Virus record (IMG/VR): IMGVR_UViG_2667527584_000001
Coordinates: 1 to 11,798 of that record
Source of the DNA: a virus
Taxonomy: Monodnaviria; Loebvirae; Hofneiviricota; Faserviricetes; Tubulavirales; Inoviridae
Length of the DNA: 11,798 nucleotides
Strand: one strand, 5' to 3'
Within the stretch, counting starts at the first letter, position 1; each line of letters begins with the position of its first letter. This document shows positions 1,768 to 2,839 of this stretch, one piece after another. The position numbers and the translations under genes are program-made. Below the pieces are notes generated by a model. The model saw nothing but the letters and a program-made list of their open reading frames with translations, was not told the origin of the DNA and did no database searches.

Positions 1768-2034
1768 TTAGTCCTGCTGTCGACCAGGGGCATCATAACC
1801 TTGTCTTTTTCGCCATGCTTTTTCACCTCTCTCCCATATAACCGTGTCATTAGTTAGCTTTCTAAATTTCGCTAATACTTTTTTATCAATGGATAAATTT
1901 CCATTAGCATTCAAATATACGAAAGTATCGCCAAATAACTCTTTTATTTTATATACAACAGTTTCTTGATATAGCCAGTTTGTGTTTTCCAGCTCTGATT
2001 TCATCCATTGTGCAACATCATCTACAGTAGCCAT
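1768..2034 (-). CDS. Hypothetical 88-aa protein, distal gene of the prophage cargo operon; function unknown
   Basis: Intact ORF with an AAGGA Shine-Dalgarno about 7 nt upstream of the ATG. It starts 10 nt after the stop of the 264-aa gene and is followed by the terminator. No family recognised. Confidence 0.6.
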   Translation of the reverse strand: MATVDDVAQWMKSELENTNWLYQETVVYKIKELFGDTFVYLNANGNLSIDKKVLAKFRKLTNDTVIWERGEKAWRKRQGYDAPGRQQD

Positions 2035-2044
2035 ATATGTCCTT

Positions 2045-2839
2045 TTATTTTGGTGAGATTATTACTTTTACCGAAATTGAATTTGTACAACGCTCAAGGT
2101 CATTCTCCACACCAATTGGATTGGCAATTCTACCTTCAGGGTCATATACAAAACACACTAAAGTTTCGCAATCAGGATGCGTTTGATAATGAGCTATATC
2201 AACAATTAATTGCTCACCAACTTCTTTTTGCTTGAGATTTTTTCTCGTTTTCTTTAACTCGATAATGATTTTTTCATTCTTTAACAAGAAGTCAACTCGT
2301 GTTGAAGATCCTGCATAGCTTGGCGTATATTCTTCTGGTCTGACATCCTCGAAATGAATCTTCAAAAGAGCATGAAATAAATCCTGAACGTCATATTCGT
2401 CATTTATTTCAATGGTTTGTCTATTATCGTGTCGTTGCTGTAGCTGTCTTGCAACCTTATGAAATTGATGGCAAATTAGTTCAACAAGAGCTACGGGATC
2501 ATTTTTTGTCTCTATGAAATTCCCGTCAATTCCATATTCTTCAATCTCAGCAATCATAGACGTAAGAAGAGAATGTGCTTCATCTAAACCACTACAAAAT
2601 GCGTTATCGAAAACATAATCTGGTGTATCACCAACAAATGCCATTAAAGAGTATCGAATTGAGCCAAATTCTTTTTTGTGATCTGACTCTTCACCAAATA
2701 TTTTTGATATGGCGGTCTTAGTGTTTCTTTGCCATAAGTTAAAACTTGGGTTATTTCCTGTACTCCTTCGTTCATTTTGTATTGCTGGGATTTGCTCCCG
2801 TTGTCTTTTTAATATCTCGATAGCTTTTTCTGGCTTCAT
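2045..2839 (-). CDS. 264-aa protein with a C-terminal PD-(D/E)xK-like (restriction-endonuclease-fold) nuclease motif set; N-terminal domain of unknown function
   Basis: Intact ORF with a GAGGA Shine-Dalgarno 8 nt upstream. By my residue count the C-terminal region carries HFE164D165V, RVD183FLL, IIIE194LK196K and GEQ210L with typical spacing for this fold. The assignment is by motif inspection only. The gene is visibly AT-rich. Confidence 0.6.
   Translation of the reverse strand: MKPEKAIEILKRQREQIPAIQNERRSTGNNPSFNLWQRNTKTAISKIFGEESDHKKEFGSIRYSLMAFVGDTPDYVFDNAFCSGLDEAHSLLTSMIAEIEEYGIDGNFIETKNDPVALVELICHQFHKVARQLQQRHDNRQTIEINDEYDVQDLFHALLKIHFEDVRPEEYTPSYAGSSTRVDFLLKNEKIIIELKKTRKNLKQKEVGEQLIVDIAHYQTHPDCETLVCFVYDPEGRIANPIGVENDLERCTNSISVKVIISPK

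What the first reader, a model, noticed from the sequence alone, without database searches (positions are those of the whole stretch)
1768..2839. Two-gene cargo module (PD-(D/E)xK-like protein plus 88-aa partner) in an inovirus at dif: candidate undescribed defense or toxin-immunity system
The two genes are separated by 10 nt, each has its own Shine-Dalgarno, and they form the distal end of the prophage leftward operon, ending at a terminator that abuts the att site. The 264-aa protein has a C-terminal motif set typical of the PD-(D/E)xK nuclease fold (E164/D165, D183, E194-x-K196, Q210 by my count) after an N-terminal region of about 150 aa that I cannot assign. The 88-aa partner is unassigned. 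No methyltransferase, helicase or ATPase is adjacent, so it does not fit a restriction-modification system, Hachiman or Shedu. The module is visibly AT-rich and sits in the accessory position between att and repressor. A nuclease effector with a small partner carried by a prophage is a common architecture for anti-phage defense or superinfection exclusion.
Basis: partly seen in the sequence, partly recalled or inferred. Interest (0 to 1): 0.85.

Follow-up and report, generated by a model that had tools for sequence, protein, structure and literature searches.

The report
Swappable nuclease cargo in filamentous prophage
A filamentous prophage sitting at the E. coli dif site carries, in a slot where sister prophages carry other genes, a probable stand-alone immune nuclease plus a small winged-helix protein; this looks like an untested single-gene anti-phage defence candidate, not a new two-gene system.

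Summary
Two minus-strand genes lie 10 nt apart (264 aa, 2045-2839; 88 aa, 1768-2034). Each has its own Shine-Dalgarno, both are AT-rich, and they end at a strong hairpin beside a hybrid dif site.

The 264-aa protein is a PD-(D/E)xK nuclease (Pfam PF18742, E 7e-59). D183, E194 and K196 align with the catalytic D298, E309 and K311 of the Argonaute-associated DNase EcbAgaN.

Its N-terminal domain is a four-helix bundle. It is homologous to the N-domain of the PADLOC candidate PDC-S35, where it is fused to a TIR domain. Across 1.84 billion representative proteins the same N-domain is fused to TIR, REase, nucleosidase-like or Ymh domains.

The 88-aa protein (DUF6953) is predicted to be a winged helix. 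It is not a conserved partner:
- 0 of 80 diverse nuclease loci have it.
- An 85%-identical Pectobacterium nuclease lacks it.
- IncX4 plasmids carry a solo homologue.
- DUF6953 also occurs alone.

The two genes exactly fill a variable slot of CUS-1/YpfPhi-type inoviruses. Sister prophages hold a TIR protein or other cassettes there.

Best reading: an auto-inhibited, single-gene abortive-infection-type nuclease carried as phage cargo, with a facultative neighbour. I found no experimental evidence for any function. It is a new variant of a known kind and of moderate interest.

The parts
2045..2839 (-). 264-aa two-domain protein: N-terminal four-helix bundle plus C-terminal PD-(D/E)xK nuclease. 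This is the core of the finding.
   Evidence: ORF. Pfam PF18742 E 6.9e-59. PADLOC Aga_Helical-REase 1.3e-34 and PDC-S35 over the N-terminus only, 3.6e-11. PHROG 29450 full length. 3617 homologous clusters. AF2 model mean pLDDT 82.6.
2525..2839 (-). N-terminal domain (aa 1-105). A helical bundle shared with PDC-S35 and fused elsewhere to other immune effector domains. Inferred to be the regulatory or sensor module.
2048..2497 (-). C-terminal REase_DpnII-MboI (PD-(D/E)xK) domain (aa 115-264), with D183, E194 and K196.
   Evidence: Pfam match to aa 118-264. Secondary-structure core alpha-beta-beta-beta-alpha-beta: H148-162, E166-169, E183-186, E191-197, H204-218, E226-232. Profile match to EcbAgaN 23wq aligns R-V-D183 and E194-x-K196 with the RID and EVK motifs. 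Those motifs are the catalytic D298, E309 and K311 (PMC13535254).
1768..2034 (-). 88-aa DUF6953 protein, predicted winged helix. A facultative neighbour of the nuclease.
1766..2906 (.). Variable cargo slot of the prophage. Similarity to sister prophages stops at 1763-1765 and resumes at 2902-2911.
   Evidence: blastn of the window against L002, L103, L104 and L105. Alternative contents of the slot are listed.
1698..1737 (-). Backbone hairpin (17 bp) ending the cargo transcript. Shared by prophages with different cargo.
   Evidence: RNA fold dG -33.4 kcal/mol, z -6.36. It lies inside the block conserved in sister prophages.
1668..1703 (+). Hybrid dif-like attachment site at the left prophage end.
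   Evidence: 1668-1682 is identical to dif positions 1-15, after which the sequence diverges.
2907..3329 (-). 140-aa predicted membrane protein. It is conserved backbone flanking the slot, not part of the swapped cassette.
   Evidence: Present at 94-98% nucleotide identity in sister prophages with other cargo and even with another repressor. PHROG 4174, function unknown. No Pfam hit.
3429..3875 (-). HTH repressor-like gene of the prophage (RstR/CI-like).
   Evidence: Pfam HTH_3 1.6e-9. PHROG 3557, transcriptional regulator. Weak NCBIfam RstR match, below cut-off.
11172..11199 (+). Intact 28-nt E. coli dif site at the right prophage end.
   Evidence: Exact match, none in 200 shuffles.

Best explanation
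The 264-aa gene is a self-contained, single-polypeptide immune effector carried as exchangeable cargo by a CUS-1/YpfPhi-type filamentous prophage. Its C-terminal PD-(D/E)xK domain is probably a metal-dependent, sequence-non-specific DNase of the family used as the killing module in long-B Argonaute (AgaN) and some Detocs systems. Its N-terminal four-helix bundle is the same module that PDC-S35 proteins fuse to a TIR NADase domain and other proteins fuse to nucleosidase-like or Ymh domains. I infer that this bundle keeps the nuclease off and switches it on, probably by oligomerisation, when an invading phage or other mobile element is sensed. DNA degradation then aborts the infection and so protects both the lysogen population and the resident prophage. 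The 88-aa DUF6953 protein is a small winged-helix, probably nucleic-acid-binding, protein. It travels with the nuclease in one enterobacterial cassette lineage but is dispensable for the family. It may tune expression or act independently as a phage moron. Shown: domain identities, conserved catalytic residues, modular fusion of the N-domain, solitary distribution of the nuclease, and the variable-slot location. Inferred: DNase activity, auto-inhibition, the trigger, the anti-phage phenotype and the role of DUF6953.
For: Nuclease domain. PF18742 matches at E 6.9e-59. The only solved relative by sequence is EcbAgaN, with the catalytic D and E-x-K aligned. In EcbAgaN the C-terminal domain alone is toxic and the N-domain auto-inhibits it (PMC13535254). 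PF18742 is listed as an effector type in Detocs (bioRxiv 10.1101/2023.01.24.525353). The catalytic residues are invariant or nearly so across phyla. Modularity. Residues 1-107 match PADLOC PDC-S35 positions 1-103. Proteins with this N-domain plus TIR match PDC-S35 over its full length (E 2e-90). Others carry PN-superfamily/PDC-M60C or ThsB-like TIR/PDC-S66 domains. Autonomy. 80 of 80 loci from diverse phyla have no DUF6953 and no recurrent neighbour. IncX4 plasmids carry a solo 44%-identical homologue. P. polaris carries a solo 85%-identical one. Some solo homologues sit beside GajA/Old, type I R-M, PemK, PIN or HNH genes. Cargo slot. The two genes exactly fill a slot that in sister prophages holds a CAP12/Pycsar-type TIR protein, a zinc-ribbon plus 159-aa pair, or a 369-aa unknown. 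24 of about 96 E. coli genomes with this backbone carry this cassette. Precedent. Variable attL-adjacent ORFs are described in YpfPhi/CUS-1 (PMC4266046). Accessory hotspots enriched in defence genes are described in Vibrio filamentous prophages (PMC11630473).
Confidence: 0.55

Rival explanations
1. Obligate two-gene system. The nuclease is a toxin or effector and DUF6953 is its antitoxin, immunity protein or sensor partner, and both are needed.
For: The genes are 10 nt apart and are swapped as one block. The same pair occurs in a Salmonella inovirus and in a Pectobacterium brasiliense chromosomal island. In Morganella the nuclease has decayed to a pseudogene full of stop codons while DUF6953 is intact, as with orphan antitoxins.
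Against: 0 of 80 diverse nuclease loci have DUF6953 within 6 kb. P. polaris has an 85%-identical nuclease with intact catalytic residues and no DUF6953, at the locus where P. brasiliense has the pair. IncX4 plasmids keep a solo homologue. DUF6953 occurs alone in a Tatumella tailed prophage, an E. coli plasmid-like region, another prophage and metagenomic contigs. In the related AgaN the restraint is intramolecular.
Confidence: 0.12
2. Solitary restriction-type endonuclease that cuts foreign DNA directly. It would be either modification-dependent (Type IV) or a DpnII/MboI-like GATC cutter tolerated because the host is Dam-methylated.
For: The Pfam family is named after DpnII/MboI and the protein size is similar. 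It is solitary, like Type IV enzymes. There is a weak PADLOC hit to a Type IIG REase (E 0.006).
Against: The Pfam scan at E up to 1 returned only PF18742 and a sub-threshold CENP-S match. No conserved methyltransferase neighbour was found in 80 loci. The family keeps about 50% identity across phyla, which by general knowledge is atypical for fast-evolving specificity enzymes. The N-domain is shared with TIR, nucleosidase-like and Ymh fusions, which do not need a DNA-recognition module. The N-domain is a plain helical bundle rather than a known modified-base reader fold.
Confidence: 0.15
3. Cargo serving the prophage or host in a way unrelated to anti-phage immunity. Examples are prophage stabilisation (addiction), competition among co-resident filamentous phages, or a host-fitness or virulence factor as suggested for CUS-1/YpfPhi.
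For: CUS-1 and YpfPhi give modest in vivo fitness effects, and their attL-adjacent ORFs have no assigned function (PMC4266046). These prophages occur in tandem arrays and on a Klebsiella plasmid. Neither protein has a homologue in 50,697 phage records.
Against: The nuclease family is overwhelmingly found outside inoviruses, in chromosomes and plasmids of many phyla. So its function cannot be inovirus-specific. Its domain relatives are immune effectors.
Confidence: 0.1

Closest known systems
PADLOC candidate PDC-S35 (single-gene candidate; N-terminal helical domain plus CAP12/Pycsar-type TIR)
   Same: The N-terminal ~105-aa domain is homologous (E 3.6e-11 to profile positions 1-103). Length (~264 aa) and the two-domain single-gene layout also match.
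   Different: The C-terminal effector is a PD-(D/E)xK nuclease instead of TIR, so the predicted killing chemistry is DNA cleavage rather than NAD+ depletion. PDC-S35 itself is an untested candidate.
AgaN, the nuclease of long-B Argonaute BPAN systems (EcbAgaN, PDB 23wq)
   Same: Same nuclease domain family, with the catalytic D...E-x-K aligned. Same two-domain layout of an N-terminal regulatory domain and a C-terminal toxic nuclease.
   Different: No Argonaute gene is present in the window. The N-domains are not detectably related: the profile match to EcbAgaN covers only profile positions 139-199, in the nuclease domain. AgaN is activated by pAgo-guide-target complexes, which cannot apply here.
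Detocs variants with a REase effector (PF18742)
   Same: Same Pfam nuclease domain used as an immune effector.
   Different: Detocs effectors are receiver-domain proteins working with DtcA and DtcB. No such genes or domains occur here.
Shedu (SduA)
   Same: Single-gene defence with a PD-(D/E)xK nuclease restrained by a variable N-terminal domain. This is an analogy of mechanism. E. coli SduA appeared only as a non-significant Foldseek hit (E 0.36).
   Different: The Pfam scan returned only PF18742 and a sub-threshold CENP-S match, and PADLOC returned no Shedu model.
Variable attL-adjacent ORFs of CUS-1/YpfPhi and accessory hotspots of Vibrio filamentous prophages
   Same: Same prophage family and position: between the repressor side and attL at dif. 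The content of the slot differs between otherwise ~98%-identical prophages.
   Different: The CUS-1 strain UTI89 carries a different 369-aa gene in the slot. I did not find the REase plus DUF6953 cassette described in the papers read.

Membership tests
PD-(D/E)xK nucleases, Pfam PF18742 REase_DpnII-MboI | Significant match to the family profile above the curated cut-off | tested here: met
   198 bits against a cut-off of 27. aa 118-264 cover profile positions 2-150 of 150.
PD-(D/E)xK nucleases, Pfam PF18742 REase_DpnII-MboI | Conserved catalytic D ... (D/E)-x-K on the alpha-beta-beta-beta-alpha-beta core | tested here: met
   D183 and K196 are invariant and E194 is nearly invariant in 30 sequences. 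They fall on predicted strands 183-186 and 191-197. They align with the RID and EVK motifs of EcbAgaN.
PD-(D/E)xK nucleases, Pfam PF18742 REase_DpnII-MboI | Nuclease activity | not testable with these tools
   Needs biochemistry.
PADLOC PDC-S35 | N-terminal helical domain of the profile | tested here: met
   PDLC05005 positions 1-103 matched by aa 1-107, E 3.6e-11.
PADLOC PDC-S35 | C-terminal CAP12/Pycsar-type TIR domain (full-length profile match) | tested here: not met
   Only the N-terminal part matches. True members match positions 1-261 at E 2e-90.
Long-B pAgo BPAN system | Adjacent long-B Argonaute gene | tested here: not met
   All window ORFs are hipBA, inovirus genes or the cassette.
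Type II restriction-modification | Cognate methyltransferase adjacent to the endonuclease | tested here: not met
   None in the window. No recurrent neighbour in 80 loci.
Type II toxin-antitoxin or toxin-immunity pair | Toxin and neutralising partner co-conserved as neighbours | tested here: not met
   DUF6953 is absent in 80 of 80 diverse loci, in P. polaris and in IncX4 plasmids. DUF6953 occurs alone elsewhere.
Type II toxin-antitoxin or toxin-immunity pair | Toxicity of the nuclease relieved by the partner | not testable with these tools
   Needs expression experiments.
Shedu | DUF4263 nuclease domain | tested here: not met
   The Pfam scan returned only PF18742 and a sub-threshold CENP-S match, and PADLOC returned no Shedu model.
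Hachiman | HamA nuclease plus HamB helicase | tested here: not met
   No helicase gene is adjacent and PADLOC returned no Hachiman model.
Detocs | DtcA histidine kinase and DtcB next to a receiver-domain effector | tested here: not met
   No such genes or domains.
DUF6953 (PF22266) | Profile match above the cut-off | tested here: met
   98.9 bits against a cut-off of 27, aa 3-75.
Winged-helix DNA-binding proteins (for the 88-aa protein) | Winged-helix fold | tested here: met
Winged-helix DNA-binding proteins (for the 88-aa protein) | Nucleic-acid binding | not testable with these tools
   Needs EMSA or a similar assay.
CUS-1/YpfPhi-type dif-integrating inovirus (context) | Inovirus replication, Zot-like and secretin genes flanked by a dif and a dif-like site | tested here: met
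   Phage_CRI and G2P_X_C domains in the replication protein. RefSeq annotation of the identical prophage lists Zot-family and GspD-like genes. dif sites. The backbone is shared with UTI89, an O18:K1:H7-lineage strain carrying CUS-1.

The most novel reading that the evidence does not exclude
The ~105-aa N-terminal four-helix bundle defines a large, unrecognised family of single-chain immune proteins. One shared sensor or switch domain would drive interchangeable killing modules: TIR (= PDC-S35), PD-(D/E)xK DNase (this protein), nucleosidase-like, ThsB-like TIR and Ymh domains. The REase branch alone, with more than 3600 sequence clusters across bacterial phyla and IncX4 plasmids, would be a widespread new defence gene. 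The attL-adjacent slot of E. coli CUS-1-type inoviruses would be a compact discovery site for such genes. DUF6953 could be a new winged-helix modulator that adapts the nuclease to life on a mobile element.
Probability: 0.35. Interest if true: 0.6.

Novelty: new variant of a known kind. Interest (0 to 1): 0.45.

Why it matters
If the nuclease protects against phages or plasmids, it would add a widespread single-gene defence to the known repertoire. The family has more than 3600 sequence clusters, including a backbone gene of IncX4 plasmids. It would also give the untested PDC-S35 candidate a sibling with a different effector. That pairing makes the shared N-domain a tractable model for how one switch controls different killing chemistries. 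Finally, it would show that the small CUS-1/YpfPhi filamentous prophages of pathogenic E. coli, Salmonella and Klebsiella exchange immune cargo at one defined slot. That bears on phage-therapy resistance and on the unexplained fitness effects of these prophages.

Tried and rejected
- NCBIfam gave nothing for either cargo protein.
- PHROGs matched only families of unknown function.
- Megablast of the cassette and of the prophage backbone, and tblastn of both proteins, against 50,697 phage records gave no match.
- Foldseek of the nuclease model against the PDB gave no hit below E 0.1. PD-(D/E)xK enzymes (Can2, ACE1, SduA, EndoMS, Mus81) appeared only among the weak hits.
- A profile search of DUF6953 against PDB sequences found nothing.
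- Literature searches for DUF6953 and PDC-S35 returned no papers. A search on 'AgaN' as a word start returned irrelevant papers.
- I looked for similarity between the alternative cargo proteins of sister prophages and this nuclease and found none.
- Rejected: R-M, Hachiman, Shedu, Detocs and BPAN membership, because defining components are missing.
- Rejected: a dedicated inovirus life-cycle function, because the family lives mostly outside inoviruses.
- Not resolved: which promoter drives the cassette. The consensus scan found no sigma-70-like site upstream of the nuclease or the membrane gene on the minus strand.
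Full report
**1. Context**

The window is an E. coli chromosome segment. It runs hipB-hipA (1-1589), then a hybrid dif-like site, then a filamentous prophage, then an intact dif.
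- The hybrid site at 1668-1682 equals the first 15 nt of dif.
- The intact 28-nt dif is at 11172-11199.
- The prophage has a G2P-type replication protein (Pfam Phage_CRI 1e-73 and G2P_X_C 4e-34).
- RefSeq annotation of the identical prophage in strain GN02323 lists Zot-family and GspD-like genes. The prophage is in tandem copies there.
- The backbone is shared at about 98% identity with the prophage at the same site in UTI89. UTI89 belongs to the O18:K1:H7 lineage, in which CUS-1 was described.
- CUS-1 is 99% identical to Yersinia pestis YpfPhi over 7.1 kb (PMC4266046).

**2.

- The two minus-strand ORFs are 2045-2839 (264 aa) and 1768-2034 (88 aa), 10 nt apart. Each is preceded by a purine-rich Shine-Dalgarno.
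- GC falls to 0.34-0.36 across them, against 0.47 in the chromosomal flank.
- A 17-bp hairpin at 1698-1737 follows them (dG -33.4 kcal/mol, z -6.4) and abuts the att site.
- In an alignment of 30 homologues from Proteobacteria, Bacteroidota and Firmicutes, D165, D183 and K196 are invariant. E194 is nearly invariant.
- One qualification. A hairpin followed by a U-rich run lies between the repressor gene and the 140-aa membrane gene (z -4.8). No consensus promoter was found for the cargo. The 'leftward operon' is therefore plausible but not shown.

**3. What the 264-aa protein is**

*C-terminal half.*
- It matches Pfam PF18742 (REase_DpnII-MboI) at E 6.9e-59 over the whole profile.
- It matches the PADLOC models for Argonaute-associated 'Helical-REase' proteins at 1.3e-34.
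- A family profile searched against all PDB sequences finds one relative, EcbAgaN (23wq, E 1.7e-4). The alignment places R-V-D183 on the R-I-D motif and E194-L-K196 on the E-V-K motif.
- In EcbAgaN those motifs are the catalytic D298, E309 and K311. Its isolated C-terminal domain is toxic, and the N-terminal domain keeps the full-length dimer auto-inhibited (PMC13535254).
- PF18742 is also listed as an effector type in Detocs systems.

*Predicted structure.*
- The AlphaFold2 model has mean pLDDT 82.6. It shows an N-terminal helical bundle (residues 3-102, pLDDT above 90), a disordered linker (106-112), and an alpha-beta-beta-beta-alpha-beta core carrying the motifs.
- The nuclease assignment therefore rests on sequence profiles, conserved residues and secondary-structure order.

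**4. The N-terminal domain is the informative part**

- Residues 1-107 match positions 1-103 of the PADLOC candidate PDC-S35 (E 3.6e-11). The rest of that 264-position profile is not matched.
- A search of residues 1-112 against 1.84 billion representative proteins found 462 proteins at E up to 1e-3.
- Domain content of the best 148:

| C-terminal domain | Proteins |
|---|---|
| CAP12/Pycsar-type TIR (PF10137) | 46 |
| PF18742 | 18 (21 by my own profile) |
| Other TIR families | 6 |
| Hypoth_Ymh | 1 |

  Most of the remaining proteins are fragments or have no assigned domain.
- A PADLOC scan of ten of them showed three things. The N-domain-plus-TIR proteins are full-length PDC-S35 (E 2e-90). 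One protein carries a PN-superfamily/PDC-M60C domain. One carries a ThsB-like TIR/PDC-S66 domain.
- One N-domain joined to several alternative toxic effector domains is the pattern expected of single-chain sensor-effector immune proteins. On this evidence the 264-aa protein is the nuclease sibling of PDC-S35.

**5. The nuclease does not need DUF6953**

The family is large and well conserved. It has 3617 clusters at 90% identity, full-length members of about 262 aa, and about 50% identity across phyla.

*Nuclease without DUF6953:*
- In 80 loci from different species, none has a DUF6953 ORF within 6 kb. All-against-all comparison of the three genes on each side found no recurrent neighbour.
- Immediate neighbours are mostly unrelated singletons. 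A few are defence or toxin genes: GajA/Old-type ATPases, type I R-M S and M subunits, PemK, PIN, HNH.
- Pectobacterium polaris has an 85%-identical nuclease with no DUF6953. P. brasiliense has the pair at the same chromosomal locus.
- IncX4 plasmids carry a solo 44%-identical homologue.

*DUF6953 without the nuclease:*
- It occurs in a Tatumella tailed prophage, an E. coli plasmid-like region, another prophage, and metagenomic contigs.

*The pair together:*
- It recurs in a Salmonella inovirus, there with an extra DUF2158 gene, and in P. brasiliense.
- It also recurs in degraded form in Morganella. There the nuclease is a pseudogene full of stop codons while DUF6953 is intact.

The association is therefore real but facultative and confined to one enterobacterial cassette lineage.

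**6. DUF6953**

- It matches PF22266 (E 1.8e-28).
- Conserved tryptophans and a basic C-terminal tail fit nucleic-acid binding, which remains an inference.
- No paper mentions the family.

**7. The slot**

- Similarity between this prophage and its sisters stops at 1763-1765 and resumes at 2902-2911. The two genes are exactly the exchangeable unit.
- They sit between the conserved 140-aa membrane gene and the conserved terminator and att block.
- About 96 of 5426 complete E. coli genomes carry this backbone segment, and 24 have this cassette. It is also on a Klebsiella IncFIB/HI1B plasmid.
- Alternative contents of the slot:

| Strain | Cargo |
|---|---|
| UTI89 | 369-aa protein with no Pfam or PADLOC match |
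| O55:H7 DEC5E | 368-aa protein with a CAP12/Pycsar TIR domain (PF10137, 3.6e-20; matches the TIR part of PDC-S35) |
| FDAARGOS_1303, ECONIH2 | zinc-ribbon protein plus a 159-aa protein |

- Variable attL-adjacent ORFs were already noted for YpfPhi against CUS-1. Accessory hotspots near the border of Vibrio filamentous prophages are reported to be enriched in defence genes (PMC11630473).

**8. Mechanism and rivals**

I consider it most likely (about 0.55) that the 264-aa protein is an auto-inhibited, stand-alone abortive-infection-type DNase. Its N-domain would sense or transmit a signal of invasion. DUF6953 would be an optional winged-helix neighbour. All functional steps are inferred by analogy with AgaN and from the modular architecture. 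None is shown.

Rivals:
- An obligate toxin-partner pair (about 0.12), weakened by the co-occurrence data.
- A solitary restriction-type enzyme (about 0.15), weakened by the N-domain's fusion to non-DNA effectors.
- A non-immune prophage or host-fitness function (about 0.10), weakened by the family's distribution outside inoviruses.

**9. Novelty**

- The domain families exist in Pfam and PADLOC, and defence cargo in filamentous prophages is a published concept.
- What I did not find described is this N-domain-plus-REase architecture as a unit, its relation to PDC-S35, and the exchangeable slot in E. coli CUS-1-type prophages.
- It is a new variant of a known kind. It is a good, cheap experimental candidate, not a surprise to specialists.

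Noticed in passing
window 2907-3329 (-): A 140-aa protein with about four hydrophobic segments. It is conserved in all sister prophages whatever their cargo, and even with a different repressor. It has no Pfam hit and falls in PHROG 4174, function unknown. It borders the variable slot and could itself be a superinfection-exclusion or regulatory factor.
   Followed up: partly
window 3330-3432 (-): Two hairpins lie just after the repressor stop codon, the second (10 bp) followed by UCUUUAUU. The region folds better than shuffles (z -4.8). It may be a terminator or attenuator separating repressor and cargo transcription.
   Followed up: partly
L106:5321-5524 (Salmonella inovirus); L087-L091 (metagenomic contigs): DUF6953 lies next to a DUF2158 gene in two unrelated settings. 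In the Salmonella cassette DUF2158 is downstream. In a metagenomic locus it is upstream, together with an HTH_17 gene. HEAT-repeat genes are also near DUF6953 in two contexts (L087, L099). This may be a small-protein module of its own.
   Followed up: no
L083:5300-5983 (Morganella morganii): A PF18742 nuclease gene decayed into a pseudogene with many stop codons sits 17 nt upstream of an intact, 76%-identical DUF6953 gene. No other window inovirus protein matched this locus.
   Followed up: partly
L104:1368-2474 (E. coli O55:H7 DEC5E); L103:1284-2393 (UTI89): The same prophage slot holds a 368-aa protein with a CAP12/Pycsar-type TIR domain in O55:H7. In UTI89 it holds a 369-aa protein with no detectable domain. 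Both are further untested cargo candidates.
   Followed up: partly
L102:4878-5669 (Salmonella Heidelberg IncX4 plasmid pSEEH1578_02) and about 200 other plasmids: A 263-aa homologue (44% identity) of the nuclease is present in IncX4-type conjugative plasmids of E. coli, Salmonella, Klebsiella and Citrobacter. It is annotated only as hypothetical, or wrongly as malate dehydrogenase.
   Followed up: partly
L001 and L002 (E. coli chromosomes); L101 (Klebsiella pneumoniae plasmid p1): The prophage occurs as head-to-tail tandem copies at dif. It is also present, again in tandem, on a 248-kb IncFIB/IncHI1B Klebsiella plasmid, with 100% identical cargo proteins.
   Followed up: no
window 10389-10637 (+) and 10783-11031 (+): Two small ORFs with no Pfam hit lie next to the intact dif. 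They correspond in position to the function-unknown attR-adjacent ORFs (YPO2280a, YPO2281) described for YpfPhi/CUS-1.
   Followed up: no
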